Of a stretch of 64,000 nucleotides of DNA, positions 58,100 to 62,581 are shown piece after piece (the stretch's first letter is position 1; each line of letters starts with the position of its first letter). The stretch lies in contig CAZZNV010000001.1 in the NCBI GenBank assembly GCA_964655915.1, positions 102,250 through 166,249 of the forward strand, written 5' to 3'. Position numbers and translations under genes: made by a program. The notes below the pieces were generated by a model. The model was not told where the DNA came from and made no database searches. It saw nothing but the letters and a program-made list of their open reading frames with translations. The stretch is from an uncultured Azospirillaceae bacterium (lineage in GTDB: Bacteria > Pseudomonadota > Alphaproteobacteria > RF32 > CAG-239).

Positions 58100-59275
58100 T
58101 TGCTAAAAAAACTTAAACAATATCGTTTATTGATTTTCATGATTTTAGCGGCATCGGCAGCTGTCGCCGCGACGGGGTATTATTTTGCACAAGAGAAAAG
58201 CGAACCGGAATATCTGTCGAAAATAGATAAACTTATGTTTAACAGCAAGAATACTCCGCCAAAGGTTATTTTAACTTTGCCGGACTTTAAAGTTCCTGAA
58301 AAAAACAAAAAAAAGGCACCTGTGGTTAATGATGTTCCTCCGGAGGAAGAAGAACTTCCCAGAAAAGAGCCGAAGAAAGAAATAACTTTAGATGATTTGA
58401 TGGAGGCCATTCCTAAGCTGGTGTCATTAAAACCCAAAGAAGCAACACAAAAATTAAAATTTGTCGATTTAGATGAAGCCTTAACAGAAACAACCGAAAC
58501 GACAAAACTTCCGCGTATATCGGATAAGGGAAAGAAACCTTGGGTGGAATATGGAAAAATGGTTACAATCCTACCGACATTTAAAAAGGTGGGGATTGTT
58601 ATTAAAAACATGGGGTTTGACGATTTCTCTCTTGATCAAATCAGTAAAGGGCTTCCCTCTGAAATATCTTTGAGTTTTTCGCCTTACGGACAGGAACTGG
58701 ATAAGAAAATAACCAGAGCGCGCCTCCATGGGCACGAAACTTATATGGACTTGCTTTTATCATCAAAAGATTTTCTTAAATCCGACAGCGGTCCGATGGC
58801 TATCAATATGAGTGTCGGCGAAGACGAAAACATCGGCCGCGTTATGAAACTGCTTAATGTGGGAGCCCCTGTTGGTGGTGTTGTTGTTAATGACGGCATT
58901 GCCGATGACAGCAACAAGGCTTTGATGGAAAAAATCTTTACAATATTGAAAAATCGCGGTTTACTTATGCTTGACGCGATTGGCAGCAATGAGCTGCAAG
59001 ATATTAAAGTTGAACAGCTTTCTCGCCGAAAAGCCGATGTTGTTATTGAAACTTTTGACAGAGCAGAGATACGAAAAAAACTTCAGGAAGCACAAAATAT
59101 CGCTTTAGAAAACGGTCAAGTCTTGATTGCGGCGGAAAATAAGCCGATTATTGTGGTTGAGATAGCCCGTTGGGTAGATACATTTTCTCCTCAACTCGGT
59201 TATGATAAAAATAAAAATCAAGAGGTTCCTATGCCCCTTGCCTTGGTACCAATATCTAATCTGGTGACGGAATAA
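58100..59275 (+). CDS. Divergent polysaccharide deacetylase family protein (YibQ-like)
   Basis: 391 aa with an N-terminal TM and a C-terminal domain matching the divergent polysaccharide deacetylase family. This is the conserved neighbour of ctpA in alphaproteobacteria. Confidence 0.65.
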   Translation: MLKKLKQYRLLIFMILAASAAVAATGYYFAQEKSEPEYLSKIDKLMFNSKNTPPKVILTLPDFKVPEKNKKKAPVVNDVPPEEEELPRKEPKKEITLDDLMEAIPKLVSLKPKEATQKLKFVDLDEALTETTETTKLPRISDKGKKPWVEYGKMVTILPTFKKVGIVIKNMGFDDFSLDQISKGLPSEISLSFSPYGQELDKKITRARLHGHETYMDLLLSSKDFLKSDSGPMAINMSVGEDENIGRVMKLLNVGAPVGGVVVNDGIADDSNKALMEKIFTILKNRGLLMLDAIGSNELQDIKVEQLSRRKADVVIETFDRAEIRKKLQEAQNIALENGQVLIAAENKPIIVVEIARWVDTFSPQLGYDKNKNQEVPMPLALVPISNLVTE

Positions 59276-60339
59276 TGAGTCTTTTTTACAGAAAAAATGT
59301 CGGAATTGTTGTTTTTAGAAGAGATTTAAAGGTTTTAATGTGTGCCAGAGCAGACCAAGAAAACGCTTGGCAATTTCCCCAAGGAGGGATTGAGGAAGAT
59401 GAGGAGATTATTACCGCTGGATTGAGGGAATTGCGCGAAGAAACAGGAATTACCTCTGTCAGAATGATGCTTCAGTTTCCAAGGCTGTTACGATATAAAT
59501 ATCCTCCCGAAGTGGTTTCATCTAATAAAAATTCGGGATTCCCGGCCTATATCGGTCAAGAACAAGCTTGGCTGTTGATGTATTTTTACGGCAAAGATGA
59601 TGAGATAAACTTTGAAACGAATCCTGATGAGATTGAATTTAAAGATTATCGATGGGTTGATATTGACGAAGCCCCGTTAAGAGTTGTTGACTTTAAGAAA
59701 GATGTTTATAAGGAAATTTCTTCCGGTTTCAAGATTTATATGAATGCTTTGGTGGTTGACAAAGAACAGGAAGAGGAAAAGCCCATTAAAGAAAAAAAAG
59801 ACATTATGGCCGCTATCCATAAGGGAATTGACACTAATATTTTATTATCCAGTTTGCAGAAGAAGTATCTCAAAAATCTTTTGATATTTTCATTTATGAC
59901 GGTATCTGCTGACAAAGAAATCAAAGGATCCGATTTGATTAAACTGGTTAACGGATTATTCAAGAAGCTGATTATTGATATTTTAAAAGATGAAGACGGA
60001 GAGGAAGTTGAGAATTATGACAACGCCTTGACTATTGATCTTAATCAGATTATTGCGGATGACAAACAAATCAGTTTTCAGAAAATTCAGGAAAAAATAA
60101 CGCCTTCCAGCATTATTGGCGTTATAAAAACAAACACACAGGGTTTTTCTCAACGACAACTCCTGAACAGGCTTTTATCTTTGCGCAATGAAAAAGCACG
60201 GAAAAAAGACGATATTGAAGAAGAAGAAAAGAAGAAGAAAAGAGAAAAAGAAGATTTTGATTATGAGCTGCAACAGCAACGAGAGCAAATGATGGATAAT
60301 TTCATCAGAGAAGCATATACTCCAAGAGGAAGAGGTTAA
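59275..60339 (+). CDS. rppH: RNA pyrophosphohydrolase RppH (Nudix; IalA homologue) fused to a ~190-aa C-terminal domain of unknown function
   Basis: The N-terminal ~165 aa carry the Nudix box GGIEEDEEIITAGLRELREETGI. A non-Nudix charged domain then continues in frame to 60339. Confidence 0.85.
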   Translation: MSLFYRKNVGIVVFRRDLKVLMCARADQENAWQFPQGGIEEDEEIITAGLRELREETGITSVRMMLQFPRLLRYKYPPEVVSSNKNSGFPAYIGQEQAWLLMYFYGKDDEINFETNPDEIEFKDYRWVDIDEAPLRVVDFKKDVYKEISSGFKIYMNALVVDKEQEEEKPIKEKKDIMAAIHKGIDTNILLSSLQKKYLKNLLIFSFMTVSADKEIKGSDLIKLVNGLFKKLIIDILKDEDGEEVENYDNALTIDLNQIIADDKQISFQKIQEKITPSSIIGVIKTNTQGFSQRQLLNRLLSLRNEKARKKDDIEEEEKKKKREKEDFDYELQQQREQMMDNFIREAYTPRGRG

Positions 60340-60365
60340 TTCTATCGCTGTTTTTTCAAAAACAA

Positions 60366-60394
60366 TTGTTAACATCCGCAAAATAGTGTATATT
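60366..60394 (+). promoter_or_regulatory. Sigma70-like promoter for the stand-alone paralogue gene
   Basis: TTGTTA-N17-TATATT. Confidence 0.4.
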
Positions 60395-60433
60395 ATGACA
60401 TGTCGACGAATTGTTCGGTGTTTTTAGGATTTC

Positions 60434-61003
60434 ATGGGTATGACAGCAGAATTAAAATTCAAAAAAGAAAGAGATCTGGTCTTGGCCGCCGCCAAAAAGG
60501 GAATCGAAAGCAATGTTCCTCTTTCCGGTTTGCAGAAAAAATATTTGAAAAACCTGTTGCTGTTCTCCTTGATGAACGCATCTGCTAATGAAACGGTTAC
60601 AAAACCAAATTTTGTAAAGTTGGTTAATCGGTTTTATAAAAAATTGATTATTGACATCATCAAAGAAGAAGATGATGACGACGATGGCGAATTTGATACG
60701 GCTTTAAGTGTAGACTTAAATAAAATAATGGCCGATGCCGATAAATTAGATTTGCAAGAAATTCAAGCTTTATTAACCCCGGCTAATATTGTCGGTATCA
60801 TAAAAAAGAACACCAACGGCATGTCTCAACAGCAAATCATAAAAAACATTCTGGCTTTAAGAGATGCAAAGGCTAATCATAGAGAAACTCCTGAGGAGGC
60901 CAAAGAGCGCGAACGTCGACAAAAAGAATATAAGATGATGAGGCAACGCCAAATGATGATGGATTCTCGTATTTTAACCAGAGGCGAACGCAGCCGTCAT
61001 TAA
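60434..61003 (+). CDS. Stand-alone paralogue (189 aa) of the RppH C-terminal extension domain
   Basis: Clear collinear similarity to RppH residues ~175-354 (LQKKYLKNLLLFSLM / LQKKYLKNLLIFSFM; KLVNRFYKKLIIDIIKEEDDDDDGEFDTALSVDLNKIMAD / KLVNGLFKKLIIDILKDEDGEEVENYDNALTIDLNQIIAD). It has its own AGGA SD and promoter. Confidence 0.6.
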   Translation: MGMTAELKFKKERDLVLAAAKKGIESNVPLSGLQKKYLKNLLLFSLMNASANETVTKPNFVKLVNRFYKKLIIDIIKEEDDDDDGEFDTALSVDLNKIMADADKLDLQEIQALLTPANIVGIIKKNTNGMSQQQIIKNILALRDAKANHRETPEEAKERERRQKEYKMMRQRQMMMDSRILTRGERSRH

Positions 61004-62067
61004 ACTTTTTCTTTTTTTGATTTTAACTGTCCGCAAGCCGCTAAGATGTCTTGTCCTCGAGCCACCCGTATCGGAGCCTCGTATCCGGCTGATTCCAATT
61101 CCCTTGAAAAGGCGTGGACTTTATTGTTGGAACTCGGTTCATAACCACATCCCGGCCACGGGTTAAAAGGTATAAGGTTGAATTTTGCCCCCAACTTGTA
61201 CTTCTTCATCAGTGCTATTAATTCTTTGGCATCGTCCAAAGAATCGTTAAAATCTTTGAGCATTAAATACTCAAAAGTTATCATGCGACTAAAACCCATA
61301 ACATCTTGGTATTTTTGACAGGCAGTCAACACCTTATCAATATTGTATGTGTTGGTTACGGGCATGATTTTTGAGCGTTTTTCATCATTTGGCGCATGCA
61401 GACTTATTGCAAGCTTTACACCCAATTCTGTCGCCACTAAGGGGATTTTTGGAGCAATACCCGATGTTGACAAGGTAATTCGACGCTTGGATATGGCTAT
61501 ACCATCACCATCGGAAAGAATTTTCAGCGCTTTGATGACATTATCCGTATTTTGCAACGGCTCGCCCATTCCCATAACAACAATATTTGACAGGTATCGT
61601 GTTTCATTTGTCGGGCTCGGCCACTCACCGTAAGCATCTCGAGCAACCATAAACTGCGATACAATTTCGCCAGCGGTTAAATTACGTGTGATTTTTTGGC
61701 TTCCGGTATGGCAAAACCTACACCCCATAGCGCAACCGACCTGAGTAGAAATACAAACGGCTCCTCGGTCTTCTTCCGGAATATAGACGGTTTCTATACG
61801 CTGTCCGTCAGCAAATTCCAGAAGCCATTTATGGGTTTTATCCGAAGAAATTTGCTCTGTAATGATTTTTGGGCGTGTGATTGTAAAATTTTCCGCCAGC
61901 TTTCCTCGCAAATCCTTTGACAGATTGGTCATCTGTTCAAAATCTGTTACGCCTCTGAAGTATATCCATTGCCATAATTGCTTCGCACGGAAATCTTTTT
62001 CTCCGATAGCCTCTATTTCCGCTGACAGCTCATCTTTTGACAAGCCGATAAGCTCTTTCTTTTCCAT
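61000..62067 (-). CDS. rlmN: 23S rRNA m2A2503 / tRNA m2A37 methyltransferase RlmN (radical SAM)
   Basis: 355 aa with the CAMGCRFCHTG radical-SAM cluster and the RlmN C-terminal Cys. Confidence 0.9.
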   Translation of the reverse strand: MEKKELIGLSKDELSAEIEAIGEKDFRAKQLWQWIYFRGVTDFEQMTNLSKDLRGKLAENFTITRPKIITEQISSDKTHKWLLEFADGQRIETVYIPEEDRGAVCISTQVGCAMGCRFCHTGSQKITRNLTAGEIVSQFMVARDAYGEWPSPTNETRYLSNIVVMGMGEPLQNTDNVIKALKILSDGDGIAISKRRITLSTSGIAPKIPLVATELGVKLAISLHAPNDEKRSKIMPVTNTYNIDKVLTACQKYQDVMGFSRMITFEYLMLKDFNDSLDDAKELIALMKKYKLGAKFNLIPFNPWPGCGYEPSSNNKVHAFSRELESAGYEAPIRVARGQDILAACGQLKSKKEKV

Positions 62068-62071
62068 ATCT

Positions 62072-62581
62072 TTATCTTTTACATTTGTTGGTTATGGCTC
62101 GATAAGCACTGCTAAAACCAGCCAGCGAATAAGTATCTTTTGTTTGCGTTCCCTTACTGGAGGTTCCGTGAACAACCATTCTGGAGCCCCGCTTCATAGC
62201 CTCAACAATCTCTTTATCAACTTTTTCGCTTACAGACCATGCTTTATCACCATTGGTAAACATTCTATCAAATGTTTTTGCGCCTATTTTTACAACAAAT
62301 TTCGAATCGGATTTAAATGTGTAGCCTGCATTAAAATTAACGACGTCGTAGCTTTTTTCTGCCGGACGATGTGTAATTACGGCATAAATATCTCCGCGTC
62401 GAGTATACTTTCCTTCATCTTTTTTAGGGGTGGATGCCATGTAGCAAACGGGCCCCGCCTTATCTCTGTAATAATAAGCAACCCAGTCGTCATATTCTCC
62501 AATCATTTGCGGCGCTTCGGCAAACGCTTCCGGAATGCGGCACAAAACAGCTAATCCCAGCAAAAATATAATTTTTTTCAT
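62072..62581 (-). CDS. ialB: Invasion-associated locus B (IalB) family periplasmic protein
   Basis: 169 aa with a signal peptide and an IalB-family core (…DDWVAYYYRDKAGPVCYMAS…). It lies 4 nt upstream of rlmN. Confidence 0.75.
   Translation of the reverse strand: MKKIIFLLGLAVLCRIPEAFAEAPQMIGEYDDWVAYYYRDKAGPVCYMASTPKKDEGKYTRRGDIYAVITHRPAEKSYDVVNFNAGYTFKSDSKFVVKIGAKTFDRMFTNGDKAWSVSEKVDKEIVEAMKRGSRMVVHGTSSKGTQTKDTYSLAGFSSAYRAITNKCKR

What the first reader, a model, noticed from the sequence alone, without database searches (positions are those of the whole stretch)
59275..61003. RppH (IalA homologue) fused to a novel ~190-aa domain that is tandemly duplicated as a separate gene
Canonical RppH/NudH is ~160-175 aa. 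Here the Nudix module (aa 1-~165) continues in frame into a ~190-aa charged domain. The next gene (60434-61003) is a diverged copy of that same domain, at roughly half identity by eye and collinear over ~170 aa, with its own SD and TTGTTA-N17-TATATT promoter. In Bartonella the Nudix hydrolase IalA and IalB sit adjacent as the invasion-associated locus. Here ialB lies ~1.7 kb further on, separated by the extra domain gene and rlmN. A fused-plus-free domain pair points to a functional partner of the RNA pyrophosphohydrolase, acting in cis and in trans, that has not been characterised. The domain has a conserved hydrophobic core (LQKKYLKNLL[IL]FS[FL]M), an acidic patch and a basic tail.
Basis: partly seen in the sequence, partly recalled or inferred. 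Interest (0 to 1): 0.72.

Follow-up and report, generated by a model that had tools for sequence, protein, structure and literature searches.

The report
RppH fused to its duplicated neighbour gene
In one lineage of uncultured gut alphaproteobacteria, the RNA 5'-end pyrophosphohydrolase RppH has merged in frame with a copy of the small uncharacterised gene that normally sits right after it, while a second free copy remains; this marks that orphan protein as a candidate RppH partner, with no function shown.

Summary
ORF 59275-60339 (354 aa) is an intact RppH Nudix module (aa 1-~161) joined in frame to a ~185-aa helical domain. The next gene (60434/60440-61003) is its paralogue: 47% identity over 155 aa, E 3e-41.

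The fusion is not an artefact. The identical protein occurs in two other assemblies, and an 89%-identical fusion plus free copy occurs in a third. dN/dS for the fused domain is 0.05.

The domain ("X") is an orphan family with no Pfam, NCBIfam, PDB or viral-structure match. It has only 37 clusters among 1.84 billion proteins, all traced ones from gut or rumen alphaproteobacterial MAGs.

In 60 unfused relatives X is a separate gene downstream of a normal 153-191-aa rppH. The stop and start overlap in 33 and lie 0-20 nt apart in 13. Only two fused proteins exist among 5.8 billion.

The most likely history is tandem duplication of X followed by in-frame merging of the upstream copy with rppH. The fused copy diverged faster, losing the invariant NHRETP motif and the basic tail.

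Tight operon coupling plus fusion suggests X is an RppH accessory subunit. This is inferred, not shown, and a mirror-tree test was inconclusive. Verdict: a new variant of a known kind, of moderate interest.

The parts
58100..59275 (+). Upstream operon gene: divergent polysaccharide deacetylase (YibQ-like). Its stop overlaps the rppH start by 1 nt (TAATG).
   Evidence: Pfam PF04748, E 3.9e-21. ORF coordinates. The same order ctpA-deacetylase-rppH is seen in relatives.
59275..59757 (+). RppH (NudH/IalA-type) Nudix module of the fusion, aa 1-161, with an intact Nudix box (aa 37-59).
   Evidence: NCBIfam NF001938 at 138.3 bits against a cutoff of 116; Pfam NUDIX. Aligns end to end with the 163-165-aa RppH of relatives. 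dN/dS 0.034 against L007.
59758..59787 (+). Junction or linker, aa 162-171 (DKEQEEEKPI). It occupies the position of the rppH stop and X start of relatives; both ancestral codons are gone.
   Evidence: Protein alignment with unfused RppH. DNA alignment of the junction with L006 and L011. L006 has TAA-TCC-ATG with X in frame.
59788..60339 (+). X1: fused copy of the orphan X domain (aa 172-354 plus stop). It keeps the core fold but has lost the NHRETP motif and the basic tail.
   Evidence: Family HMM E 6.2e-65. 47% identity to X2. AF2 pLDDT 87-95 over aa 170-290 with the same secondary structure as X2. dN/dS 0.053. 29 of 50 conserved positions retained.
60366..60394 (+). Sigma-70-like promoter candidate for X2 (TTGTTA-N17-TATATT; overlapping alternative TTAACA-N16-TATTAT at 60369-60396).
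   Evidence: Consensus scan. The motif is conserved in L007 although coding synonymous sites between the two are near saturation. No terminator-like site lies between the two genes. Function was not tested.
60426..60429 (+). Shine-Dalgarno-like AGGA, 4 nt before ATG 60434 and 10 nt before ATG 60440.
   Evidence: Sequence. Public gene calls start at 60440, giving 187 aa.
60434..61003 (+). X2: free-standing copy of the X family (189 aa, or 187 aa from 60440). It retains the ancestral sequence features: NHRETPEE at aa 148-155 and a basic C-terminal helix.
   Evidence: Family HMM E 2.5e-86. 94 homologues of 143-229 aa. AF2 pLDDT 80.7, pTM 0.66. dN/dS 0.036.
61000..62067 (-). rlmN (context). It is convergent with X2 and the ORF ends overlap by 4 nt.
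   Evidence: ORF list. Pfam RlmN_N and Radical_SAM on the identical gene in L001.
62072..62581 (-). ialB homologue (context).
   Evidence: Pfam PF06776 IalB, E 2.6e-14.

Best explanation
**What it is (shown).** A genuine, selectively maintained gene fusion in one lineage of uncultured gut-associated alphaproteobacteria. The clade includes 'Proteobacteria bacterium CAG:495'. That this is GTDB order RF32 is from memory; the one paper checked names RF32 and CAG-495 but does not link them.

**Ancestral state (shown).** Throughout this clade a normal single-domain rppH is followed, usually with overlapping stop and start codons, by a ~185-aa gene of an orphan helical family (X).

**History (inferred from gene order and a weakly supported tree).**
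1. In the window's lineage X was tandemly duplicated.
2. The upstream copy, at the ancestral position, merged in frame with rppH. Both the stop and the start codon were lost, giving RppH-linker-X1.
3. The downstream copy (X2) kept the ancestral sequence and is expressed separately, probably from its own promoter.
4. X1 then diverged faster. It kept the folded core but lost the invariant NHRETP motif, the N-terminal F9 and the net-basic C-terminal helix.

**How it most likely works (inferred, not shown).** X is an accessory subunit of RppH. Translationally coupled gene pairs and gene fusions are classic signatures of physically cooperating proteins. X would bind RppH, RNA or both through its basic tail, and would tune or target 5'-triphosphate or diphosphate removal, the step that triggers RNase E-dependent decay. 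This is functionally analogous to DapF for E. coli RppH.

In the fusion lineage the tether makes X1 constitutive. Peripheral docking or RNA-binding motifs may then have become dispensable in X1. X2 keeps the ancestral trans-acting role and may pair with X1.
For: **Real and selected**
- The identical 354-aa protein is on contigs from SRR9335148 and SRR9130108.
- An 89%-identical 353-aa fusion plus free copy is on a contig from SRR7774474.
- dN/dS window against L007: Nudix 0.034, X1 0.053 (dS 1.5), X2 0.036.

**Paralogy**
- 47% identity over 155 aa, E 3e-41.
- Both copies hit the family HMM: 216 and 286 bits.
- X1 is modelled with the same secondary structure at high pLDDT.

**Ancestral arrangement**
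- In 60 unfused loci, rppH (153-191 aa) lies upstream of X.
- The stop-to-start distance is negative in 33, 0-20 nt in 13, 21-140 nt in 8 and about 1.65 kb in 6.
- In the closest relative, L006, the junction reads TAA-TCC-ATG, so X is already in frame.

**Rarity**
- Only P0129 and P0097 are fused among 5.8e9 proteins.
- One fused representative appears among the 37 hits in 1.84e9 proteins.

**Lineage-specific duplication**
- The four copies from the window and L007 cluster together in an NJ tree.
- A second, independent tandem paralogue (X') exists in L069 and L073.

**Divergence of X1**
- Median identity to the family is 38%, against 54% for X2.
- 21 of 50 conserved positions changed, including N148, R150, E151, T152 and P153. 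Tail charge is -1 against +6.

**Precedent for RppH cofactors.** DapF binds and stimulates E. coli RppH (PMC4227774, PMC6061855, PMC6061791).
Against: - No direct evidence of an RppH-X interaction. The AF2 model of the whole fusion failed for the Nudix half (pLDDT below 50), so it gives no interdomain information.
- The mirror-tree test is not specific. The RppH-X distance correlation is 0.61 (partial 0.30). X correlates better with the upstream deacetylase: 0.78 (partial 0.48).
- X is not always next to rppH. A 492-500-aa gene on the opposite strand separates them in 6 loci. In L008 and L012 X sits after cca, with no rppH within the available upstream flank (3-4 kb).
- X2 here probably has its own promoter.
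- The duplication clade has only 71/200 bootstrap support, so an older duplication with losses is not excluded.
- X has no recognisable fold or motif that points to RNA or Nudix binding.
Confidence: 0.6

Rival explanations
1. **Neutral operon-neighbour fusion.** X has a function unrelated to RppH. It could be a general nucleic-acid-binding or housekeeping protein, or something tied to the envelope genes M23 peptidase-ctpA-deacetylase in the same operon. The adjacency would reflect only co-transcription. The fusion would be an accident (stop loss in an abutting gene pair) tolerated because a flexible linker lets both halves work independently, with X2 supplying the original function.
For: - X is displaced from rppH in some species.
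- X co-varies more with the deacetylase than with RppH.
- X2 has its own conserved promoter-like site.
- L006 shows how trivially a fusion can arise: the gap is 3 nt and in frame.
- X1 lost the family's most conserved motif, as expected if X2 carries the essential role.
Against: - 46 of 60 unfused pairs have overlapping or at most 20-nt stop-to-start spacing. That arrangement is maintained across species whose RppH and X differ by a mean distance of about 0.66.
- X1 is under strong purifying selection (dN/dS 0.053 at dS about 1.5), so the appended domain is used and not merely tolerated.
- The fusion has been kept across a species-level split.
Confidence: 0.32
2. **Assembly or sequencing artefact, or a decaying pseudogene.** A stop codon after the Nudix module was lost by error, or the C-terminal extension is a degenerating remnant of a duplicated gene.
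For: Only two protein clusters worldwide carry the fusion. X1 is the more diverged copy.
Against: - The same ORF appears in three independent read sets, in addition to the NCBI assembly that also holds the identical protein (contig of 311,621 bases).
- The reading frame stays open over 193 codons despite near-saturated synonymous divergence, with dN/dS 0.053.
- The X1 core is confidently folded in AF2, pLDDT 87-95.
Confidence: 0.03
3. **X as a self-associating scaffold.** The primary role of X is homo- or hetero-oligomerisation, hence the recurrent tandem paralogues. The fusion would serve to dimerise RppH or to localise it, for example to an RNA-decay body through charged tails, without X modulating catalysis allosterically.
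For: - Tandem paralogues arose twice: X1/X2 here, and X/X' in L069 and L073.
- The C-terminal helices are long and highly charged, with mixed or basic charge.
- In mycobacteria, charged regions of RppH drive condensate-like localisation with RNases (PMC12988327).
Against: No oligomer prediction or experimental data were available. The X core is a compact folded domain, not an intrinsically disordered region. This reading overlaps with the best explanation and does not exclude it.
Confidence: 0.15

Closest known systems
RppH / NudH (E. coli RppH; Bartonella IalA) - single-domain Nudix RNA pyrophosphohydrolase
   Same: The N-terminal 161 aa match the RppH equivalog model above its cutoff, have an intact Nudix box and are collinear with the 163-165-aa RppH of relatives. 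The genomic setting after ctpA and the YibQ-like deacetylase is the same as in relatives.
   Different: The protein is 354 aa, carrying an extra folded ~185-aa helical domain at the C-terminus. Only two such proteins were found among 5.8 billion.
DapF-RppH complex of E. coli (a trans-acting protein activator of RppH)
   Same: Conceptually the same: a separately encoded protein proposed to associate with RppH and modulate 5'-end deprotection (PMC4227774, PMC6061855, PMC6061791).
   Different: X has no sequence or structural similarity to DapF or to any solved protein. X is encoded next to rppH, and the interaction is only inferred here.
Eukaryotic Dcp2 (Nudix decapping enzyme with a helical regulatory domain and partner Dcp1) and mycobacterial RppH with flanking IDRs
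   Same: A 5'-end-modifying Nudix catalytic domain carries an extra non-catalytic module that, in those systems, mediates partner binding or localisation. PMC12988327 draws this parallel for mycobacterial RppH and Dcp2.
   Different: The Dcp2 regulatory domain is N-terminal and did not appear among the listed fold-search hits. The mycobacterial extensions are disordered, whereas X1 is a confidently folded domain.
Rosetta-stone (domain-fusion) gene pairs and translationally coupled operon pairs
   Same: Proteins that are separate and adjacent in most genomes are fused in a few. From established comparative-genomics knowledge, this pattern is used to predict functional or physical association.
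   Different: Here the fusion coexists with a retained free paralogue, and the fused copy has diverged in its most conserved motif.

Membership tests
RppH/NudH RNA pyrophosphohydrolase (Nudix) | Nudix fold or domain match | tested here: met
   Pfam PF00293, E 9.7e-21, aa 5-146.
RppH/NudH RNA pyrophosphohydrolase (Nudix) | Score above the curated cutoff of an RppH equivalog model | tested here: met
   NF001938 at 138.3 bits against a cutoff of 116. The four other RppH equivalog models score below their cutoffs.
RppH/NudH RNA pyrophosphohydrolase (Nudix) | Nudix box GX5EX7REUXEEXGU with catalytic glutamates | tested here: met
   G37...E43...R51 E52 L53 x E55 E56 x G58 I59, read from the translation. 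The regex is positive for the window.
RppH/NudH RNA pyrophosphohydrolase (Nudix) | Single-domain architecture of about 155-190 aa | tested here: not met
   354 aa here. Relatives have 153-191 aa. This is an architectural variant; the catalytic module is still a member.
RppH/NudH RNA pyrophosphohydrolase (Nudix) | Pyrophosphohydrolase activity on 5'-ppp or 5'-pp RNA | not testable with these tools
   Needs a biochemical assay.
Orphan X family (~185-aa helical protein of gut alphaproteobacteria; no existing name) | Significant full-length match to the family profile | tested here: met
   X2 scores 285.8 bits and X1 216.0 bits against the HMM built from A1. X2 is a member of the alignment from which the model was built, and X1 was also included in it.
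Orphan X family (~185-aa helical protein of gut alphaproteobacteria; no existing name) | Invariant NHRETP(E)E motif before the C-terminal helix | tested here: met
   Met for X2 (aa 148-155). Not met for X1, where N148R, R150K, E151D, T152D and P153I have changed.
Orphan X family (~185-aa helical protein of gut alphaproteobacteria; no existing name) | Position immediately downstream of rppH | tested here: met
   46 of 60 unfused pairs lie within 20 nt or overlap. X1 occupies that position, and X2 lies 94 nt after X1 (100 nt if it starts at 60440).
DapF-type RppH activator | Diaminopimelate epimerase fold or sequence | tested here: not met
DapF-type RppH activator | Physical binding to RppH and stimulation of it | not testable with these tools
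   The AF2 model of the fusion was uninformative for the Nudix half. No multimer prediction was available.
ialA-ialB invasion-associated locus (Bartonella) | Nudix ialA homologue adjacent to ialB | tested here: inconclusive
   Both genes are present: RppH and IalB by Pfam, E 2.6e-14. They are 1.73 kb apart, on opposite strands and separated by X2 and rlmN. The same rlmN-ialB-cca block is conserved in relatives. No invasion role can be inferred.

The most novel reading that the evidence does not exclude
X would be the founding member of a new, structurally novel class of RppH cofactors, specific to one clade of gut alphaproteobacteria. It would bind RppH, and RNA through its basic C-terminal helix, to target or activate 5'-end deprotection. 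The invariant NHRETP motif would be the docking element that became dispensable once X1 was covalently tethered. In the fusion lineage, RppH-X1 and free X2 would form a heteromeric decapping-like holoenzyme.
Probability: 0.35. Interest if true: 0.65.

Novelty: new variant of a known kind. Interest (0 to 1): 0.5.

Why it matters
**Why the lead is useful**
- Control of bacterial 5'-end-dependent mRNA decay is understood mainly in E. coli, where DapF stimulates RppH. Among the RppH papers consulted here, the only extended RppH orthologues described are the mycobacterial ones with disordered regions (PMC12988327). This was not a systematic literature search.
- Comparative genomics here points to a candidate RppH partner of unknown fold. 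The pair is translationally coupled across a whole clade, and nature has fused it once.
- That gives a concrete, cheap experiment: co-express RppH and X from an unfused species, or the natural fusion with and without X2, then assay binding and pyrophosphohydrolase activity.
- It also gives a first functional handle on an orphan protein family in a poorly studied group of gut bacteria.

**Limits**
- The family is tiny: 37 clusters at 50% identity.
- The hosts are uncultured.
- The functional link is inferred only from gene order and fusion.

Tried and rejected
1. **C-terminal domain as homology query.** It returned only one hit and missed the query's own protein, a limit of the word index. The exhaustive profile search and the full-length query replaced it. 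In one search I set max_evalue to 1e-20, which left only 7 Nudix homologues. This was a poor choice for building an MSA.
2. **AF2 model of the whole fusion, to look for docking of X1 on the Nudix domain.** MAFFT repeatedly misaligned the plant and other Nudix sequences onto the C-terminal half, even after trimming and adding an anchor. The job was run without them (A6). The Nudix half came out unmodelled (pLDDT 27-49, pTM 0.43), so there is no interdomain information. Only the X1 fold was confirmed.
4. **Sequence-family searches.** Pfam and NCBIfam on both ORFs, Pfam on 41 family members at E up to 1, and a PDB profile search gave only scattered sub-threshold noise. PHROGs and PADLOC were not searched.
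5. **Mirror-tree co-evolution of RppH and X against CtpA and deacetylase controls.** It was not specific to RppH-X and counts as inconclusive.
6. **DNA-level traces of the duplication.** Only short 14-21-nt chance-like direct repeats were found. Paralogue dS is saturated at 2.8, so duplication boundaries cannot be recovered. The exact mutational path at the junction cannot be read from the ~60%-identical DNA alignment.
7. **Internal translation start for X1 at M178 (ATG 59806).** Considered, but the nearest SD-like GAGGA is 28 nt upstream, too far. The ancestral X start codon is absent (sequence).
8. **Bootstrap for the lineage-specific duplication.** Support is weak at 71/200. A first Biopython attempt timed out.
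Full report
**1. The observation**

The ORF list shows 59275..60339 (+, 354 aa) and 60434..61003 (+, 189 aa), exactly as described. Residues 3-155 of the first ORF match the NCBIfam RppH equivalog NF001938 at 138.3 bits, above its cutoff of 116. Pfam NUDIX covers aa 5-146. The Nudix box G37-x5-E43-x7-R51-E52-L-x-E55-E56-x-G58-I59 is intact (sequence).

BLASTP of the two ORFs gives 73/155 identities (47%) with no gaps, E 3e-41, fusion aa 172-326 against free aa 11-165. Neither the C-terminal half nor the 189-aa protein matches any Pfam or NCBIfam model.

The promoter-like TTGTTA-N17-TATATT at 60366-60394 is found by the scan. An AGGA precedes the start. Public gene calls use the second ATG at 60440, giving 187 aa. 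The ialB homologue (Pfam IalB, E 2.6e-14) lies on the minus strand at 62072-62581, after rlmN.

**2. The fusion is not an artefact**

The exact 354-aa protein is encoded on contigs assembled from two other read sets, SRR9335148 and SRR9130108, with the same neighbours. A third read set, SRR7774474 (L007), carries an 89%-identical 353-aa fusion followed by a 186-aa free copy.

Nei-Gojobori estimates between the window and L007 are as follows:

| Segment | dN/dS | dS |
|---|---|---|
| Nudix module | 0.034 | 0.79 |
| Fused domain (X1) | 0.053 | 1.52 |
| Free copy (X2) | 0.036 | 1.34 |
| Upstream deacetylase | 0.082 | 1.00 |

The frame has stayed open through near-saturating synonymous change. The appended domain is under purifying selection as strong as that on its neighbours.

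**3. What the domain is**

I call the family X.
- A word-indexed search with the free copy found 94 proteins of 143-229 aa, all unnamed or 'hypothetical protein' from Alphaproteobacteria or Proteobacteria MAGs.
- An exhaustive HMMER profile search of 1.84 billion representatives found only 37 proteins at E up to 1e-3. One of them is a fusion (P0097, the domain at aa 167-345).
- A search with the whole fusion found only two fused proteins among 5.8 billion: P0129 (the window) and P0097.
- A scan of one genome per GTDB species returned 62 loci. All are from gut, rumen or faecal MAGs labelled Alphaproteobacteria or Proteobacteria, including 'Proteobacteria bacterium CAG:495'. From memory that genus belongs to GTDB order RF32. 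One paper mentions RF32 (order), CAG-239 (family) and CAG-495 (genus) together among gut taxa, but does not state the lineage (PMC9253600).

AlphaFold2 on a 41-sequence alignment gives a confident model of X2, with pLDDT 80.7 and pTM 0.66. It has eight helices, a small beta-hairpin (aa 91-100) and a long C-terminal helix (aa 153-183).

**4. The ancestral arrangement**

I built HMMs for X and for the RppH module and scanned every ORF in the fetched loci. I then measured the distance from the rppH stop to the X start. In 60 unfused loci a 153-191-aa rppH lies upstream of X.

| rppH stop to X start | Loci |
|---|---|
| Overlap, -1 to -19 nt | 33 |
| 0-20 nt | 13 |
| 21-140 nt | 8 |
| About 1.65 kb | 6 |

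In the six loci with a 1.65-kb gap, a 492-500-aa gene on the opposite strand (no Pfam hit on record) has been inserted. In two loci (L008, L012) X sits elsewhere: after cca in L008, with no rppH within the upstream flank held in either locus. L018 is cut by a contig end and is uninformative.

The flanking order is conserved: M23 peptidase, ctpA, deacetylase, rppH, X, then rlmN and ialB on the minus strand, then cca. So X is not an extra domain born in the fusion. It is the standard downstream, mostly translationally coupled partner gene of rppH in this clade.

**5. How the fusion arose**

The closest relative by X sequence, L006, reads ...AGA TAA TCC ATG.... X starts 3 nt after the rppH stop and in the same frame.

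In the window both the stop and the start codon are gone. RppH runs through a ~10-aa linker (DKEQEEEKPI, aa 162-171) into X1 at the point that aligns with residue ~11 of free X. The exact mutations cannot be reconstructed from the diverged DNA.

In an NJ tree of 65 X sequences, the two fused and two free copies of the window and L007 form one clade. Bootstrap support is only 71/200. X1 has a median identity of 38% to the family, against 54% for X2.

The favoured history is tandem duplication in this lineage, fusion of the upstream copy and its accelerated divergence. An older duplication with losses is not excluded. No DNA-level repeat survives, and paralogue dS is 2.8.

A second tandem paralogue arose elsewhere. 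In L069 and L073, X (193 aa) is followed by a very diverged X' (235-236 aa; P0119, E 4e-8 to the profile).

**6. What changed in the fused copy**

Fifty alignment positions are at least 90% conserved among 63 free copies. X1 keeps 29 of them, including the GI..N, QKKYLKNLL, LV...FK, N96/A100, TP..I and G129 core. It has lost the 100%-invariant N148, R150, E151, T152 and P153, which form the NHRETP motif between the core and the last helix. It has also lost F9 and N59/F60.

The C-terminal tail changes from net +6 (X2 pI 9.4) to net -1 (X1 domain pI 5.7). AF2 still folds X1 aa 170-290 at pLDDT 87-95, with the same secondary structure as X2. X1 is therefore a folded, selected, functionally diverged copy, and X2 keeps the ancestral features.

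**7. Mechanism**

*Shown:* the architecture, its conservation, and the clade-wide coupling of rppH and X.

*Inferred:* X works with RppH. Overlapping stop and start codons in most species, plus a natural fusion, are the classic comparative-genomics signatures of proteins that act together or bind each other (established knowledge on gene-order conservation and Rosetta-stone fusions).

RppH is known to be regulated by a protein partner in E. coli, where DapF binds and stimulates it (PMC4227774, PMC6061855, PMC6061791). Mycobacterial RppH carries disordered extensions that localise it with RNases, and these are described as the only RppH orthologues known with large IDRs (PMC12988327).

My best model is that X is an accessory subunit that binds RppH and, through its basic helix, RNA. 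It would target or stimulate 5'-end deprotection. After fusion the tether would make peripheral docking or RNA-binding motifs dispensable in X1. X2 would keep the trans role and may pair with X1.

*Against:*
- I could obtain no interaction evidence. The whole-fusion AF2 model failed on the Nudix half because the MSA was too shallow.
- A mirror-tree test was not specific. RppH-X r = 0.61 (partial 0.30), whereas X-deacetylase r = 0.78 (partial 0.48).
- X has moved away from rppH in some species.

I put about 0.9 on 'real, selected fusion derived from the neighbouring gene'. I put about 0.5 on 'X is an RppH partner'. The combined statement is reported at 0.6.

**8. Rivals**

- **Neutral fusion of an unrelated operon neighbour** (0.32). 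It is consistent with the relocations, the own promoter and the mirror-tree result. It is weakened by the clade-wide translational coupling and the strong purifying selection on X1.
- **Artefact or pseudogene** (0.03). It is refuted by independent assemblies and dN/dS.
- **X as a self-associating or localising scaffold** (0.15). This overlaps with the main model.

**9. Comparison with known systems**

The N-terminal module is a bona fide RppH/NudH member, apart from its architecture. X is not a member of any described family.

Functionally the closest analogues are DapF-RppH (a trans activator with an unrelated fold) and extended Nudix 5'-end enzymes: Dcp2 with its helical regulatory domain, and mycobacterial RppH with its IDRs. 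None is homologous to X.

The ialA/ialB framing is only nominal. The rlmN-ialB-cca block is simply conserved context in this clade.

**10. Verdict**

This is a real and well-supported architectural novelty of narrow taxonomic scope: a new variant of a known kind. It yields a testable hypothesis for a new RppH cofactor, but its function is unproven. Interest is 0.5.

Noticed in passing
L004 3356-4834 (-); L069 2332-3813 (-); L073 1679-3181 (-); same position in L057, L058, L060, L067: In one sub-lineage a 492-500-aa gene with no Pfam hit on record sits on the opposite strand between rppH and X. It breaks the otherwise tight rppH-X coupling, leaving a gap of about 1.65 kb.
   Followed up: partly
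L069 4687-5397 (+); L073 4001-4708 (+): A second, very diverged tandem paralogue of X (X', 235-236 aa; P0119, E 4e-8 to the family profile) lies directly after X and before rlmN. This is an independent duplication of the same gene in another lineage. X' also lacks the NHRETP motif at the equivalent position.
   Followed up: partly
L008 3064-3630; L009; L010; L012: In these genomes X is relocated. In L008 it lies after cca, and in L008-L010 it is followed by a 159-aa gene with no Pfam hit on record, then tsf and rpsB on the minus strand. L012 has no rppH within 4 kb upstream; its neighbours were not listed. Where rppH lies in these genomes was not determined.
   Followed up: no
window 59273-59277 and 61000-61003: The deacetylase stop and the rppH start overlap (TAATG), extending the translational coupling upstream. 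The convergent X2 and rlmN ORFs overlap by 4 nt at their 3' ends, with no terminator-like hairpin detected between them.
   Followed up: no
L003 1515-4361 (GCA_047017225.1, 1.08-Mb contig): The M23 peptidase, ctpA and deacetylase genes upstream of rppH are called as short fragments (107, 85, 83 and 213 aa). This suggests frameshift errors in that assembly or pseudogenisation. The C-terminus of X in this genome (P0028, 202 aa) also diverges abruptly from the family.
   Followed up: no
L006 8200-9014: A phage-integrase-family gene lies about 4 kb downstream of the rppH-X locus in the closest unfused relative. No link to the duplication or fusion was examined.
   Followed up: no
(tool behaviour): The word-indexed protein search with the X1 domain failed to return its own parent protein (P0129) and returned only one homologue, whereas the exhaustive profile search found them. 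Negative results from the indexed search on low-complexity, charged queries should not be trusted.
   Followed up: yes
L015, L016, L020, L026-L028, L063-L065, L070 (rppH genes): A strict Nudix-box regex (G-x5-E-x7-RE[LIVMFA]xEExG[LIVMF]) failed on the RppH of 11 loci. This is probably conservative substitutions rather than inactivation, but it was not inspected.
   Followed up: no
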